DNA of 64,000 bases from Octopus sinensis. Taxonomy: Eukaryota. Under the pieces are notes generated by a model that saw nothing but the letters and a program-made list of their open reading frames with translations, made no database searches and was not told the DNA's origin. Within the stretch, counting starts at the first letter, position 1, and each line of letters opens with the position of its first letter. Shown piece after piece: positions 3,001 through 63,119 of the stretch. The stretch spans positions 51,460,001 through 51,524,000 of the forward strand of contig NC_043006.1 of the NCBI RefSeq assembly GCF_006345805.1, read 5' to 3'. A program made the translations under genes and the position numbers.

Positions 3001-4545
3001 AGACCTTTTTGAGTTATTCAAGGGTGAAACCTGATATTGAAGAACCCCATTGTTCTCAGCTGACTTAATTAAACTAACAAAAATATAAATACACAAGTCA
3101 GATTGCTCTCACTCTCTTTTGGTAATTTGGTGCCTACCAAGATTATGGCTATTTCCTTCACCTGGTATGAGTGTGAGAACACAACTGTTACTCTATCTAC
3201 TTTGACTAACTTACTCTTTCTATCTCTAAGAGTCGCAGAGACGAAAATAACTACTATCATACAGAATGAACCAGAGATCTACAAACAAGTTGCACACACA
3301 CAAGCAACTTGACAAAGTTGTATATTTCTTATATATTGTAATGACTAATATTATAATTAATCTTAATAAATGGCCATTTTAATAATTGTGTTTGAGCTTT
3401 AATTGTGGAGAGAATCTGTGGAAGGGGTTGACCCAGGAAGATGTGGGACAAAGTGGTGAGAAAGGATCTTCAGACACTGTGTCTCAGTGAAAAAAAAATG
3501 ACAAGAGATTGGGAGTTGTGGCCATAAGAAAACATGTCAAGCCAAGTAAAATTGCTGTAGTTCATACACACAGGCTTGTTCTATACAGATGCTAGTGCTG
3601 CATAAATGTACCTATGCTGGTGGCACGTAAAAAGCGCCCAGCACACTCTATAAAGTGGTTAGTGTTAGGAAGGGCATCCAGCTGTAGAAACCATAGCACA
3701 GCAGACAATTTGGAGTCTGGAAAGCTCCTGCCAAACTGCCCAATCCATGCCAGCATGGAAAACACACATTAGATGATGACAATGATTCATTTTTCTTATG
3801 CATCTTCATACTAAATTCTGTCATTACATTTGGTGACCCTTGACTAAAGAACTGTATATCTTCATTACATTTTTAAACTGTAACAAAGTAATATGCCAAC
3901 TGATACTGGCACTAAGACCAAGCTACAGGATTGCTTGAACTGCCTCAGATGCATCAAGCAACAGGACTCTCTATTTTCAAGTTTGTGTAAGTTTGGTAGT
4001 AAGTTTGGTAAGGAGACAATTTTATTTACCAATATATTTTAGTATTTTCAGTGGGAAATCAATTTTGAAAATGACCAATTCAACTCTCCAGAAAATATTA
4101 TTCAACTAATTTGTGATTTAGAAAAAATTTTAATGTACATATAAATGTGAATATTTTGTCACAAATTTTAGTGTTAAGATTTTAAATGAAATGAATATCT
4201 CAGTTATTTGTTCTTTTTTAAAATCTAAAGAATGTTTTCAACAAATCATCTCAATAGTTTGCTCCTATATATTTCTCTTTAATTTAAGGTTGGCTTTTGA
4301 ATAAGAACTTTCTACAGGTTTTCTCTTTTATAAGATTTTGTTGCACCAACATAATTCACAGTGAAAATTTTCTGTCCAGTTTGTACTCAGTTGTAAATTC
4401 ATTTGTTAACTACAAGCTTAAAATTCATAAATAAGGATTTCCGAAATATTTTAGAGAGGGGACAGAATCATTTCTGGCATGGTTCACAATGATGTTTTCC
4501 CAGTGTGTAAATTTGTTGGATGGACTAAAAGTTTGCAAGAGAATC

Positions 4546-10629: not shown

Positions 10630-10654
10630 TGTATGTATGTTTATATATATATCG

Positions 10655-11245
10655 GCAAGCCCAAGTGAGAGCATAACCTCGTGGCCAGGGGTGTAACCAG
10701 CCTACTTATGCGCACCTCTCCTTCATTGGACACTAACTTTGCTTGCGAAGACCTGTTAAGGCAAGTGAAATCGAAATCAAATTCGATGATTGGCATCCGT
10801 GCTAGTGGACCGCTAAGAGTACCATACGAGCGTGATCGTTGCCAGAACAACAAACTGGCTTCCGTACTGGTGGCACGTAAAAAGCGCCATTCGAGCGTGA
10901 TCATTACCTGTGTAGCCTTACTGGCACTTGTGCTGGTGGCACGTGAAAAAACATTCGAGCGAGGTCGCTGCCAGTGTCACTAGACTGGCTCCTGTGTAGG
11001 TGGCACATAAAAAGCACCATTTGAGCGTGGCCGTTGCCAGTACCGTATGACTGGCCCTCGTGCCGGTGGCACGTAAAAGCACCCACTTAACTCTCGGAGT
11101 AGTTGGCGTTAGGAAGGGCATCCAGCTGTAGAAACTCTGCCAGATCAGATTGGAGTTTGGTACAGCTATCTGGTTCGCCAGGACCTCAGTCAAATCGTCC
11201 AACCCATGCTAGCATGGAAAGCGGACGTTAAACGATGATGATGAT
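10655..11245 (+). mobile_element. RTE-related element with diverged repeat array and (GAT)n tail
   Basis: Shares GGTGGCACGTAAAAGCACC units and GGAAGGGCATCC...CATGCTAGCATGGAAAGCGGACG end; older copies at ~3500-3786, ~18130-18367, ~25205-25408. Confidence 0.85.
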
Positions 11246-56571: not shown

Positions 56572-58542
56572 ATGGTTAGTGAGAGCTGTACAAGCCATGT
56601 ACAGAGACACTGCTAGTAAGGTGAGGGTTGGCACCGAGTACAGTGAAGAATTCAGGGTAGAGGTTGGGGTCCACCAAGGTTCAGTCCTCAGCCCCCTCCT
56701 ATTTATCATAGTCCTCCAGGCAATAATGGAGGAATTCAAGACTGGATGCCCCTGGGAGCTCCTCTATGCTGATGACCTTGCTCTAATTGCTGAGTCTCTA
56801 TCAGAACTGGAGGAGAAGTTTCAGGTGTGGAAGCAAGGTTTAGAATCGAAGGGCCTTAGAATCAACCTAGCCAAAACCAAAGTCCTAATAAGTAGGAAGG
56901 TAGACAAATCACAAACGCCTTCAGGTAGATGGCCTTGCTCGATCTGTAGAAAAGGCGTAGGTAGAAACTGTATAAGATGCACCAAATGTAAGCTATGGAC
57001 ACATAAGAGATGTAGTAATGTCAAAGGAAGACTAACTAGGAAAATAGTTTTTATCTGTGGCAGATGCTCAGGAGCAATAAACTCTGAAAATATGCAGAGA
57101 CCAACTTCTATCACGTTTCAGGGAGAAAAACTAGAAGTAGTTGATAGCTTCCGCTACCTAGGTGACCAAGTCAGTAGCGGGGGCGGGTCTGCTGAAAGTG
57201 TAACTGCTAGAGTAAGAATAGCCTGGGCAAAGTTTAGAGAGCTCTTACCCCTGCTGGTGACAAAAGGCCTCTCGCTCAAAGTAAAAGGCAGACTGTATGA
57301 TGCATGTGTACGTACAGCCATGCTACATGTTAGTGAAACTTGGGCTGTGACTGCTGAGGATTTAGGTAAGCTCGCAAGAAATAAAGCTAGTATGCTCCGT
57401 TGGATGTGTAATGTCAGTGTTCATAGTCGACAGAGTGTAAGTACCTTGAGAGAAAAGTTGGACCTAAGAGGCATCAGATGTTGTGTGCAAGAGAGACGAT
57501 TGCGCTGGTATGGTCATGTGGCGAGAATGGATGAAGATAGGTGTGTGAAAAAGTGCCACACCCTGGCAGTTGAGGGGACCTGTGGAAGAGGTAGACCCAG
57601 GAAAACCTGGGTCGAGGTGGTGAAGCACGACCTTCGAACTCTAGGTCTCACCAAGGAAATGACCAGAGACCGAGACATATGGAAGTATGCTGTGCGTCAG
57701 AAGACCCGGCATCACCAGTGAGAACAATCAAAATCAATTCATATATCAGAAAGCAGGGGTTAAGTGACCCATCTGTTCGTGTTCATTGCCAGCCTCGCCT
57801 GGCCCCCATGCCGGTGACACGTAAAAGCACCGTCCGTTCGTGGCCGTTTGCCAGCTCTGTCTGGCCCCGTGTCAGTGGCACGTAAAAGCACCATCCGTTC
57901 GTGTTCGTTGCCAGCCTCGGCTGGCCCCCGTGCCGGTGACACGTAAAAGCACCGTCCGTTCGTGGCCATTTGCCAGCTCTGTCTGGCCCTGTGTCGGTGG
58001 CACGTAAAAGCACCATCCGTTTGTGTCCGTTGCCAGCCTCTTCTGGCCCCCGTGCCGGTGACACGTAAAAGCACCGTCCGCTCGTGGACGTTTGCCAGCT
58101 CTGTCTAGCCCCGTGTCGGTGGCACGTAAAAGCACCATCTGTTCGTGTCCGTTGCCAGCCTCGGCTGGCCCCCGTGCCGGTGACACGTAAAAGCACCGTC
58201 CGCTCGTGGCCGTTTGCCAGCTCTGTCTGGCCCCGTGTTGGTGGCACATAAAAGCACCATCCGTTCGTGTTCGTTGCCAGCCTCAGCTGGCCCCCCCGTG
58301 CTGGTGAACGTAAAAGCACCGTTCGTTCGTGGCCGTTTGCCAGCTCCGTCTGGCACTTGTGCAGGTGGCACGTAAAAAACACCCACTACACTCGCGGAGT
58401 GGTTGGCGTTAGGAAGGGCATCCAGCCGTAGAAACACTGCCAGATCTGACTGGGCCTGACGAAGCCTTCCAGCTTCACAGACCCCAGTTGACCCGTCCAA
58501 CCCATGCTAGCATGGAAAGCGGACGCTAAATGATGATGATGA
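56572..58542 (+). mobile_element. 5'-truncated RTE-clade LINE
   Basis: Open frame to 57721 with GVHQGSVLSPLLF, YADD, FRYLG, RRLRWYGHV, GRPRKTW; tandem-repeat 3' UTR and (GAT)n tail. Confidence 0.92.
57770..58385 (+). repeat. ~10 x 61-bp tandem array in the LINE 3' UTR
   Basis: AAAAGCACC recurs every ~61 bp; two unit types alternate. Confidence 0.92.
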
Positions 58543-59741
58543 TACTGTAGTTATGTCGGCATAAATTTTGGTTAGTGAAAGATCATTTGGGGGAAAATAT
58601 ACAAAACTTTAATCATACACTGATCAAGTCTTTAAGTTTTATAATTTATAGTTGTGTTACAAATTTGATTAGGTACTCTACATGTGGCATAATAGGAGAA
58701 ATCAGGTCTATTTGAATTTCAGAAGATTAGGAATATTGAATGAAATGATGAGGAAAAAAAATTATGATTCTGGACTAAGATAACCAAAACTGAGAAAATG
58801 TGGTGATATTTTGTATGATAGACATGTCCAACCAATAATATGATGTAGAATGAACAGTAAAACACAGATGAAGATAATTCACAAATAATACAACTCTCTT
58901 GGCATTTAGATTCAGTTAAAACTTGTACAGATACTTGCTAATTAACATCGAGCTTAACTACAAAATCATGCTATAAATAAATAAAATATAAATCTGAACC
59001 AACGTCACTATCATTCTCTGAATGGTATGTGTACAGACAAAAGAGATATCCTATTCTGATATGAGAAAATAATTTGTTATGGTTTGTGTATCTACTTCAA
59101 ACATAAAAGCTGTGCATGATGTTATCACTGATTTATGAGAATTTTCAGCTATTTACTGAGAATGTCAAATAAATCAACAGTACCTTTTCTCTCTTGTGGA
59201 ACTATGTTAATCATAAAACATATGTGAATCTGCAATAATACTTTTATTAAAAATATTACAGTGGTAAGTTATTTCATCAATGAACATATAGTCAGTTACA
59301 TATGACATTGAGTTAAGGGATTGTTACTGTACAATTTACACCTTCCTGATCTGATTATATTTATTAAAGGAGACATTTTTTCCTCAGAATAAATTTTGAC
59401 AGTCACAGTAAATACATAAGAAAATGTGTTCTCAATCAATTGTAAAATTATTAGATATTTTAAAATGAAAGGAAAAAAAATTAATTTAATCAACAAAATT
59501 TATGAATAAAAAAATACACTCGATTGCGTTGTGTGCTAACCTCCACAAGGGAGAGTATCTATGTTGATATTTATGAATAGTGACATATGCCCATAGGGAT
59601 ATCAATATTTAGAAAAAGGAACAAAGCTAATATGGCAAACATGGTCCATATTTCAACACTGATAATGATACTTTTCTGTATGAATGCATACAAGTACAGT
59701 TATGTGACTTGTGAAAAAAATGATTAACCATATATAACACG

Positions 59742-60069
59742 GGGGGCCAGCTCTGTCTGGCCCCCGTGTTGGTGGCACGTAAAAGCACCATCCGTTCATG
59801 TCCGTTGCCAGCCTTGCCTGACCCGTGCCGGTGACACGTAAAAGCACCATCCGTTCGTGGCCGTTTGCCAGCTCTGTCTGGCACCTGTGCGGGTGGCACA
59901 TAAAAAGCACCCACTACACTCACGGAGTGGTTGGCGTTAGGAAGGGCATCCAGCCGTAGAAACACTGCCAGATCTGACTGGGCCTGATGAAGCCTTCCAG
60001 CTTCACAGACCCCAGTTGAACCGTCCAACCCATGCTAGCATGGAAAACGGACGCATGATGATGATGATA
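59742..60069 (+). mobile_element. short 3' fragment of the same RTE family
   Basis: Matches ~58215-58542, 3 repeat units, (GAT)n tail. Confidence 0.9.
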
Positions 60070-60071
60070 TG

Positions 60072-61601
60072 TCACGACTTATTTTGTGTATGATTACGTT
60101 TATGAATAGTTAGGTAACCATTTCTAGAAAATGATTTGCCACAAATATCACAGGGATATGGCTTTTCACCTGTATGAATCCTCTTGTGTTTAGTTAAATC
60201 ACTTTTTCCAGAAAATGATTTTCCACAAATATCGCAGTGATACGGTTTCTCTCCTGTATGAACACGCATGTGGATTGTTAAGTCACCATTTCGAGGGAAT
60301 GATTTACCACAAATATCACAATGATATGGTTTTTCTCCTGTATGAATGCGTTTGTGCTTAGTTAAGTGATTTATCTGAGAAAATGATTTACCACAAATAT
60401 CACAGTGATATGGTTTCTCACCTGTATGAATACGTTTGTGAATAATTAAGTTACTATTTCCAGAGAATGATTTACCACAGATATTACACTCGTAGGGCTC
60501 TTCTCCAGTATGAATACGTTTGTGAGTAGTCAAGGTATTTCTATGAGAGAATGATTTGCCACAGATATCACAGTGATATGGCTTCTCTCCTGTATGGGTG
60601 TATTTGTGATTAGCTAAACTCCCTGTTACAGCAAATGATTTACCACAGATTTCACAGCAATATGGCTTTTCCCCTGTGTGAATGCGTTTATGCTTAGTTA
60701 ATACACTATTTTGAGAGAATGATTTACCACAGACATCACAATGGTATGGTCTCTCTCCTGTATGAATGCGTTTGTGTTTAGTTAAATGATTTATTTGAGA
60801 AAATGATTTACCACAGGTATCACACTTATATGGCTTCTCACCTGTATGAACGCGTTTATGTTTAGTTAAGTCACCGTTTTCAGAGAATGACTCACCACAA
60901 ATGTCACAATGATATGGCTTCTCTCCAGTATGAATGCGTCTGTGGTTAGTTAAAGTTTTTCCATGGGAGAATGATTTACCACAGATATCACAGTGATATG
61001 GTTTCTCTCCTGTATGAACACGTTTGTGAGAAGTCAATTCACCACTTCGGCAGAATGATTTGCCACAGATATCACAATGATGTGGTTTCTCTCCTGTATG
61101 AATTCGTTTGTGCTTAGATAAATGATCACTTCGAGAGAATGATTTATTGCAGATATTGCAGTGATATGGCTTCTCTCCAGTATGAATACGTTTGTGACAA
61201 GTTAACTCACCACTTCCAGAGAATGATTTACCACAGATATCACACAGATATGGCTTCTCTCCTGTATGAATGCGTTTATGTATAGTTAAGTGATTTATTT
61301 GAGAGAATGATCTACCACAAATATTACAGAGAAATGGCTTCTCTCCTGTATGAATACGTTTGTGAGTGGTTAAGTGATCATTTTGAGAGAATGATTTACC
61401 ACAGATATCACAGTGATATGGCTTCTTTCTAGTATGAATATTTTTGTTACTGAGGTTTGTTTTTGGAGAGAATGACTTTTTAATGATATTACATGTTTTT
61501 TCTTTCTCTTTCATCAACTCATCAGAATAATTAATCCTTTCAGATTGTTCTTTACATTTAATTTGGTTGTCATGAAATTCAGTTTCCATATTTTTTTTCA
61601 T
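60072..61601 (-). CDS. C2H2 zinc-finger protein, type B (B4), 16 fingers
   Basis: 509-aa ORF, 16 canonical fingers after a decayed one (CNIIKKSF). Confidence 0.94.
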
Positions 61602-63119
61602 CTCTCATTGCAACATATGAAGCTTTTTCTTGATTTCAATTTTATGATATATTTCTAACCAATAATTCTGCTGCGATATTTCTATCAACTGTAATCTGAA
61701 AATACAACAAATTCCTTTATAATGAAAGTTTAAACTGAATGTAATCTGGTATACATTCCAATCAAGTAGAAACAAATTTGCTAATAATAAGACTTAGAGA
61801 ATATTTTCATAGAAATTCTACAACAACTTTATATAAAGAAAGTTATACTTGTTCTGTATAACATATTCCTTTAGTTTTAGATGCAACACTAATAATTTTC
61901 ATCTAATGAAAAGTATTAATGTTGCATCTAAATTAGATGATACTTTAAAGCTAAGCTCATGTCACCTTATATTTTAACATAGAGGAACAGTATAAGATAT
62001 AGAAGACATAAAAAGCAGATTCAACAGTGACAAATGAACTTTACTTTTTAATATGCTATTAAAATTAAGCCATACAACCTTGGACGAAAGTAAAGAATAC
62101 GCACACCCGGTGATTGGGGTTTTTGTTACGCCGAAAACGGGTGGTGTGCGTAGTCTTTACATCCGCCCCTTGAGTTAAATCTTCTTGCAAACTTAATTTT
62201 GTTTTAATTATAATTTTTTCAATTATTTTACTTTTTTTTATGGGAGATATTTTTGTATTTCGTTATTAGAAATATTTGCTGCAGACTCTTTTGTTTGACT
62301 ACAATATAACCTTTTATTCTTAATACTTTCGAGTACACTCACAACAGCGACTAGCACATTTGCGTTTTGAGTCTGCCGAAAGAATGACTACATAAATACA
62401 ATGCTGTTGGTCAATATAATGACTCGTTTGAATCGACTTTTGATCTTTTGAAGTCAAAGGAATTTATTTTTAAAAAATGAGAATTTATACATGTCACCAA
62501 ATGACGTTGGTTACAGTACATTCATCCAATATCTTTTTAGATGTCTCTTTCACACAAGGCCATTATTAAGCCAATTCTTGATCGTAAGACAGCGAGATAT
62601 AAAGGAATTGATCTATTTGACATTTTATAACGCATTTGTAAGTGGGAGCTTATTTAATATGCTTCTAAATAAAACCATTTGAAATTTTCGGTAAATAATA
62701 AAATTAAGAAAAGCATTTAATACTGCAATAAGGAAACAATGAAAAAATAACTACAAAAATTTGGTACTGCGAAAATATACAAAACGATTAGATGTAATAC
62801 TTTCATTATTAAATACATTTAGTCATTAATACTTACTGAAATGCTTCGTAAAATATATTTTTTACAGTTGTGTTTGCCTGTGTAATAATTAAGAAATTAA
62901 ACAGAGAACAAAAGAAGGTCTCAATGTATCAACGGATATTACTACTATGACGCATGCGTATAAATATATTTAAAGGATAAACAACTTTCATAACATCCCT
63001 TTCCCTGTTGTCTTACTAGCTAAGTTTTTGTTGTTTTTCTGGGTTTTTTTTACTTTTTATGTAATCGGCAAAATATAACCATCCCAAGTATAACAATTTT
63101 TGGCATAGTTTCGGTTGTA

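What the first reader, a model, noticed from the sequence alone, without database searches (positions are those of the whole stretch)
57770..58385. Tandem array of predicted pseudoknot+hairpin RNA modules in an RTE LINE 3' UTR
Seen: ~10 units of ~61 nt in two alternating types. Each unit has CGTGC-CGGTG-GCACG (stem 1, loop GGTG), an A-rich linker TAAAAG, then CACC that can pair with the loop, plus a second hairpin GCCAG-N-CTGGC. Unit number varies between copies (about 10 here, 3 at 59742, 4-5 at 10800, 1-2 in older copies). Inference: an H-type pseudoknot module amplified in the retroelement RNA, perhaps for RT recognition, RNA stability or processing. The stem/loop-pseudoknot/AAA layout loosely recalls pistol ribozymes but lacks their P2 strand. 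Some apparent covariation (TGTGC/GCACA) could be CpG decay.
Basis: partly seen in the sequence, partly recalled or inferred. Interest (0 to 1): 0.75.

Follow-up and report, generated by a model that had tools for sequence, protein, structure and literature searches.

The report
Relocated RNA knot amplified in LINE
The tail of a very common jumping gene, likely from an octopus, carries a variable run of 61-letter repeats whose core is predicted to fold into a small RNA knot; a related core sits once at the front of two such elements in other animals, so it was likely moved to the tail and multiplied, and it is probably a protein-binding or translation signal rather than a self-cutting RNA.

Summary
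The array is real: 10 units at 57769-58383 in the 3' UTR of a 5'-truncated EN-RT-PHD (RTE-type) LINE. The core pattern has 118,031 exact matches genome-wide (control 9); this subfamily carries 4-23 units per copy. The quoted perfect stem occurs in 0 of 10 units. Stem 1 gains non-CpG compensatory changes from two homologues in other animals, where the module sits once before a conserved GGAAGGGCAUCC motif (in a 5' leader in one, a short bipartite element in the other). That motif lies 47-60 nt before the start codon in 9 of 9 testable relatives and follows twister ribozymes in two. The knot stem and hairpin 2 are conserved without compensation. Nearest-neighbour folding prefers a 14-bp duplex between neighbouring units over the knot. 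No ribozyme support: no Rfam match, no pile-up among 48 truncation points; no unit serves as a 3' end (0 of 886). Best reading: a leader module captured into the tail and amplified like a minisatellite, under weak structural constraint. The scan noted this family or close relatives before on other DNA.

The parts
56572..57721 (+). 5'-truncated LINE ORF: end of RT domain, PHD-like finger, C-terminal region, stop
   Evidence: 93-96% identity to longer copies from 56572
57722..57768 (+). 3' UTR spacer before the array
   Evidence: shared by subfamily copies
57769..58383 (+). Array of 10 units of about 61 nt (122-nt A/B dimer); each unit = linker, hairpin 2 (GCCAG/CTGGC), core (stem 1, GGTG, TAAAAG, CACC)
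58358..58383 (+). Last core; homologous in sequence and spacing to the single module of L081 and L160; the only core predicted to fold locally (p 0.47 against 0.00)
58383..58402 (+). Small hairpin with variable loop between array and motif
   Evidence: sequence; loop positions 58394-58396 vary in laid contigs
58401..58441 (+). Conserved GGAAGGGCATCC motif, itself a predicted H-type knot (GGTTGG/CCAGCC, GGCA/TGCC, A-rich loop); 5' leader element in relatives
58494..58530 (+). 3'-terminal stem-loop, likely the RT recognition site; outer stem has a two-sided change in L160 and L204
58531..58543 (+). (GAT)n tail; no convincing target-site duplication found
59746..60068 (+). Second copy of the same subfamily, 5'-truncated inside the array (3 units left)
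10653..11245 (+). Older subfamily copy with five dissimilar units, motif and tail
3400..3790 (+). Oldest subfamily sampled: 2-3 short (about 27-nt) cores without hairpin 2, then motif and tail

Best explanation
This is the 3' UTR of a young copy of an abundant single-ORF LINE whose repeat core is a short module that was likely captured from an RTE 5' leader, is predicted to fold into a small H-type pseudoknot, and was likely multiplied by tandem duplication. Shown: the array, its place, its abundance, its variable length, single homologues in other animals, and the leader position of the neighbouring motif in relatives. Inferred steps: (1) an ancestor replaced its 3' end with a bipartite piece (leader module + motif + RTE 3' end), as exists free in L160, L210 and L213; (2) a 27-nt core was duplicated, the second copy decayed into linker plus hairpin 2, giving 58-68-nt units, and several subfamilies then expanded them independently by slippage, unequal exchange or RT template jumps; (3) in source elements stems and the A-rich loop stay under weak, redundant selection, most likely because a protein (the element's own ORF product or a translation factor) binds the knot as it forms during transcription; (4) in long arrays most cores would, at equilibrium, pair with neighbours instead, so the last unit is the likeliest working copy. 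It is unlikely to be a ribozyme or a priming site.
For: Homologues with the same order and spacing in L081 (5' UTR, in-frame ATG 51 nt after the motif) and L160 (short element ending in a GAT tail). Stem 1 on 14 chosen rows: 92.9% of cells paired against 84.1% shuffled (1 of 500), three pairs with two-sided change, two of them non-CpG transversions. GGUG invariant, partner CACC/CACU/CAUU, first loop base free. Inherited non-CpG variants: 16 in 37 linker/loop columns against 6 in 53 stem and A-loop columns. After insertion CpG decay breaks pair 1 as often as it keeps it (C.A 34, U.G 26 of 549 units), whereas the well-supported subfamily types show C-G, U.G or U-A. Motif absent from the sense strand of this lineage's own 5' region in 29 of 30 loci, the exception being a neighbouring 3' end; a relative with a complete 1143-codon frame has module and motif in the leader and a very short 3' UTR. 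Blocks of units with private structure-breaking defects are duplicated in L280 and L284.
Against: Only two non-octopus homologues, giving two independent non-CpG compensations; none in the knot stem or in hairpin 2. L160 has a mismatch at pair 1. Family A fixed a C.A mismatch in half its units. ViennaRNA puts every internal core in an inter-unit duplex (gain -21.7 kcal/mol against a rough -12 for two knots). 5'-most units of older subfamilies are degenerate. Rows for one search were picked by me and are related. No RNA evidence was obtainable. The protein partner is inferred, not shown. RTE membership rests on architecture, not on a tree.
Confidence: 0.55

Rival explanations
1. A passenger minisatellite: the core is a relic of a SINE body or leader, no longer functional; the array grows and shrinks neutrally.
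For: 4- to 23-unit spread among copies about 1% apart in the ORF end; defective blocks duplicated; a loop change that breaks the knot stem is shared by 6 loci; copies with 4-5 units inserted normally; independent dimer and monomer arrays in other subfamilies.
Against: Homogenisation would not spare stems and the A-loop while linkers and loops drift; asymmetric CpG outcomes in subfamily types.
Confidence: 0.22
2. The working structure is the inter-unit helix: palindromic cores of neighbouring units (or of two RNAs) pair into 14-bp duplexes that compact, dimerise or protect the RNA.
For: A and B cores are perfectly complementary to each other at the very pair where each is defective alone; predicted MFE and ensemble.
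Against: Does not explain conservation of UAAAA and CACC, the free first loop base, or single-copy homologues; any tandem palindrome folds so (a perfect-core dimer does too).
Confidence: 0.1
3. A DNA-level array of transcription-factor sites (each unit holds RCGTG-type words, recalled as bHLH-PAS sites) acting as enhancer or promoter.
For: Sequence only; Kojima 2018 speculates that conserved RTE 5' UTR parts bind transcription regulators.
Against: L081 loses the CACG word but keeps the pairing; several subfamilies fix CACA.
Confidence: 0.07
4. A new or pistol-like self-cleaving ribozyme.
For: The same slot before the motif holds twister-P1 in 2 of the 20 loci scanned (41 bits, E 4-5e-6, below the 67.2 gathering score); stem-loop-UAAA layout resembles pistol P1 (recalled).
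Against: No Rfam match for the array at E up to 10; no pistol, twister or HDV-like pattern in the array; 48 truncation points are spread over the unit; cutting 10-20 times between ORF and 3' end would sever the template, yet copies keep 2.9 kb of ORF plus 15 units.
Confidence: 0.06

Closest known systems
Bipartite RTE derivatives and conserved RTE 5' UTR domains (Kojima 2018, PMC5786205; read parts 1-4 of 5 and supplement passages)
   Same: 5' UTR piece joined to an RTE 3' end; tail exchange; by eye the RTE-2_DPl/HaSE1 5' UTR piece resembles the motif.
   Different: Here the joined piece is the 3' UTR of an autonomous LINE and its upstream part is tandemly amplified; the exact motif is not in that supplement (0 hits); the paper has no 'pseudoknot'.
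Meta/MESC and Deu/Nin SINE body domains (PMC4824008, PMC4758252; passages and supplement passages; file 1 of each not searchable)
   Same: By eye, their consensus sequences hold a CCCGTG...GCACG-N-TAAAG-A-ACC stem and A-run very like the core; HaSE1 and EbuSINE2 bodies hold similar stems.
   Different: Longer stem and loop, tRNA head, about 66-100 nt domain; no such SINE family in this genome by one pattern (3 matches against 1 control, one being a mutated unit). Similarity not tested by alignment.
Ribozyme-headed RTE leaders (twister-P1 RF03160; HDV-like, reviewed in PMC6765202, passages; PMC8501958, listing only)
   Same: Same slot upstream of the motif; leader structures proposed to help start translation.
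   Different: No catalytic features in the core; here in the 3' UTR.
Small H-type pseudoknots with A-rich loop 3 (luteoviral frameshift knots, preQ1-I) and the tandem upstream pseudoknot domain of tobamovirus 3' UTRs (all recalled)
   Same: Dimensions 4-5 bp / 1 nt / 4 bp / 6-8 nt A-rich; tandem knots in a 3' UTR that ends without poly(A).
   Different: No sequence relation shown; no Rfam match; knots here are 35 nt apart and palindromic.
RTE-2_OV of Octopus vulgaris (PMC9115989, passages)
   Same: Single-ORF RTE LINE of about 1100 aa with a zinc finger.
   Different: Its 3' UTR is described as mostly microsatellite; no structured array mentioned in the passages seen; identity with this family not tested.

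Membership tests
RTE-clade LINE | Single ORF with APE endonuclease then RT, no ORF1 | tested here: met
   EN and RT in L031; homologues are single ORFs of about 1000-1130 aa on 3-4.5 kb contigs
RTE-clade LINE | Short 3' stem-loop and microsatellite tail | tested here: met
   238 terminal stems with GAT tail in held loci
RTE-clade LINE | RT phylogeny groups with named RTE references | not tested
   no named reference among hits
H-type pseudoknot | Stem 1 kept by compensatory change | tested here: met
   pairs 3 and 5 two-sided and non-CpG, from two homologues only
H-type pseudoknot | Stem 2 kept by compensatory change | tested here: inconclusive
   14 of 14 rows pair; only one-sided C to U changes
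H-type pseudoknot | Forms in the RNA in preference to alternatives | not testable with these tools
   ViennaRNA has no knot model here; rough estimate favours inter-unit duplex
Pistol ribozyme | P2 and P3 helices and conserved AAAUA/G and cleavage-site nucleotides after P1 (recalled) | tested here: not met
   knot strand follows the A-run directly; no Rfam match
Twister ribozyme | RF03160 match / L4 consensus | tested here: not met
   none in the array; found in L152 and L156
HDV-like ribozyme | Nested double knot P1-P2-P3-L3-P1.1 with catalytic C in J4/2 (recalled) | tested here: not met
   own descriptor, no positive control: no sense-strand hit; one antisense hit in the tail hairpin
Meta/MESC SINE | tRNA head plus 66-100 nt central domain | tested here: not met
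   array follows a LINE ORF; only about 30 nt resemble the domain, by eye
RT priming (3' recognition) site | Insertions end right after it | tested here: not met
   0 of 886 cores followed by a GAT tail within 40 nt

The most novel reading that the evidence does not exclude
A small 'stem-UAAA' pseudoknot is the shared working unit of RTE leaders and of several conserved SINE bodies, recruiting the translation machinery or the LINE protein to uncapped RNA; this LINE lineage moved it behind the ORF and tunes its dose as a variable array of 3' cap-independent enhancers, a retrotransposon counterpart of the tandem 3' knots of plant viruses.
Probability: 0.15. Interest if true: 0.8.

Novelty: new variant of a known kind. 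Interest (0 to 1): 0.5.

Why it matters
The function of conserved SINE bodies and RTE leader domains is an open question, and RTE UTRs are being optimised empirically for gene insertion (PMC13708176, passages). A 26-nt module with a defined predicted fold, natural variants, single-copy homologues and a natural dose series of 4-23 copies makes that question testable. With at least 118,000 cores it is also a major repeat of this genome and a clear case of stepwise higher-order repeat growth (27, 61, 122 nt) inside a LINE.

Tried and rejected
Rfam on 57600-60100 at E up to 10: three chance hits outside the array. Hammerhead: CTGACGA lies in the tail but helices II and III do not form and older subfamilies lack it. 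HDV-like reading of hairpin 2 (loop CCTCGC resembles L3, recalled): no P2 partner or J4/2, loop not conserved. Post hoc knot descriptor upstream of the motif: 9 of 62 loci against 2.2 in 20 shuffles, but three of the nine were used to design it, so not counted as support. Viral contigs: no motif, no module, no protein match; 13 chance matches to the Meta-like pattern. Two of 12 genome-contig hits were chance matches in bacterial genes and were dropped. Expression: no RNA holder listed; laid runs were contigs only and say nothing on strand, level or ends. The 200-aa antisense frame over the array was taken as a by-product of the repeat. No target-site duplication found for the window copy. Literature: seven searches gave no description of this array or of a pseudoknot in SINE bodies; subscription journals, Repbase reports and two supplementary files could not be seen and may hold the family consensus.

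Full report
Observation. The stretch 57769-58377 is a tandem array (period 61 x 9.7; period 122 x 5.0 at 91%) that starts 47 nt after the stop of a 5'-truncated RT ORF with a PHD-like finger and is followed by a conserved tail and (GAT)n. The organism is likely an octopus (inferred from zinc-finger clusters, recalled repeat sequence and earlier notes; no call names it).

The element. Longer copies give EN + RT + PHD in one frame; 910 homologues at E <= 1e-50 among 7978 candidates scored, the 120 listed being single ORFs of about 1000-1130 aa. I call it RTE-type from this architecture and tail; no tree was built. The core pattern has 59,095 + 58,936 exact matches in G000 against 9 for the reversed control. 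Thirty copies picked by the ORF end, about 1% apart, hold 4-18 units (28 of 30 scored by length, several are near-identical duplicates, L297 was over-counted and has 10); thirty picked by the array hold 10-23. Older subfamilies have 3 or 5 dissimilar units, and the oldest sampled has 2-3 cores of about 27 nt with no hairpin 2. The second half of the 61-mer resembles a decayed core (sequence), so the history 27 to 61 to 122 nt is likely. In 40 stretches around the first listed matches, 47 of 57 arrays ran into the tail by my filter and several further array layouts appeared. Blocks with private, structure-breaking defects are duplicated within L280 and L284: growth is minisatellite-like.

Origin. 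The motif behind the array matched 102 metagenome stretches and 12 genome bins. In 7 of the 102 an endonuclease ORF follows it. Twister-P1 sits directly before the motif in 2 of 20 loci scanned. Two loci carry a clear homologue of the core at the same spacing: L081 in a 5' UTR and L160 in a short element that joins module, motif and RTE 3' end. A relative with a complete frame has the motif in its leader and almost no 3' UTR, while this lineage lacks it on the sense strand of its own 5' region in 29 of 30 loci. Capture of a bipartite piece, as described for SINEs by Kojima 2018, is the simplest account. By eye the core also resembles the 3' half of Meta/MESC and Deu-type SINE bodies; this was not aligned.

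Structure. On 14 rows chosen by me (12 copies standing for subfamily types, plus L081 and L160) stem 1 is 92.9% paired against 84.1% shuffled, with two-sided changes at three pairs; pair 1 is a CpG pair, pairs 3 and 5 are transversions contributed only by the two outside homologues. GGUG is invariant, its partner changes only C to U, the first loop base is free, loop 3 is 6-8 nt and A-rich. In 549 family-A units from 57 arrays, non-CpG variants shared by four or more loci number 16 in 37 linker and loop columns and 6 in 53 stem and A-loop columns (the 4 columns of the inner pair, with 3 variants, left out; Fisher p 0.001-0.004, columns not independent). Single-copy CpG decay is symmetric (pair 1: C.A 34, U.G 26), but among 21 unit types from 232 loci the well-supported ones show C-G, U.G or U-A; C.A appears only in one weak type of 4 units. 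Hairpin 2 keeps its 5-bp stem in 19 of 21 types with loops of 6-11 nt and no compensation. Against the knot: each core is a near-palindrome, and ViennaRNA pairs neighbouring cores into a 14-bp helix (gain -21.7 kcal/mol; two knots about -12 by recalled Dirks-Pierce penalties, triples ignored); local stem 1 has probability 0.00 in nine units and 0.47 in the last. The model cannot score knots, and a knot is complete 35 nt before the next core is transcribed, so kinetics or a bound protein could decide.

Function. No ribozyme features. Of 199 elements, 48 were judged 5'-truncated inside the array; their junctions fall in all parts of the unit with no single site (the two classes at the core start cannot be separated and together hold 10 against 6 expected). 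No core is followed by a GAT tail (0 of 886); the true 3' stem-loop, with its own two-sided change in L160 and L204, is the likely RT site. No usable RNA data. I therefore favour a protein-bound cis element inherited from the leader, redundant in the array (0.55), over a neutral minisatellite (0.22), a functional inter-unit helix (0.10), DNA-level sites (0.07) and a ribozyme (0.06).

Novelty. Seven literature searches found no account of this array; the SINE-domain papers listed contain no 'pseudoknot'. Repbase reports, subscription journals and two supplementary files were out of reach. The scan's own unchecked notes describe the same or related families on other DNA; they are not independent support. 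Verdict: new variant of known parts; interest 0.5.

Noticed in passing
L104, 265-75 nt upstream of the motif; L158: An independent tandem array (64 nt x 3.1, 93% match, cut by the contig end) of a different stem-loop-TAAAC knot plus hairpin in the 5' region of an RTE element of another animal; one partial copy in L158.
   Followed up: partly
window 58401-58441 and L072-L173, L204-L215: The GGAAGGGCATCC motif is itself a predicted knot: TGCC partner in 13 of 60 loci against 15 of 388 background windows; upstream strand pairs 4 of 4 in 40 of 60 against 3.9%; conservation, not covariation; partner absent in most of the SINE-like copies that make up about half the set.
   Followed up: partly
L042-L071, 1100 nt upstream of the EN start: The lineage's 5' region has tandem repeats of roughly 480 nt and a pyrimidine run ending in CAG shortly before the EN motif, like a splice acceptor.
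   Followed up: no
L057, L058, L061, L066, L067 (5' region, antisense): Weak antisense match (3 mismatches in 16) to the motif; may be chance.
   Followed up: no
window 58459-58461: Many copies read ATG here, 54 nt after the motif start, the distance of the start codon in relatives; older subfamilies lack it.
   Followed up: no
L324, L340: A subfamily locus with whole 3' UTR segments duplicated in tandem, jumping from a unit back to the ORF end.
   Followed up: no
window 60072-61604 (-) and seven similar frames: The LINE copies lie in a cluster of C2H2 zinc-finger genes, antisense and just downstream of one.
   Followed up: no
L135, L168, L162, L089/L204: Other predicted knots occupy the slot before the motif in other animals; none matches Rfam.
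   Followed up: no
L204-L215 (10 of 12): Animal retroelement DNA inside prokaryote genome bins, i.e. likely contamination.
   Followed up: no
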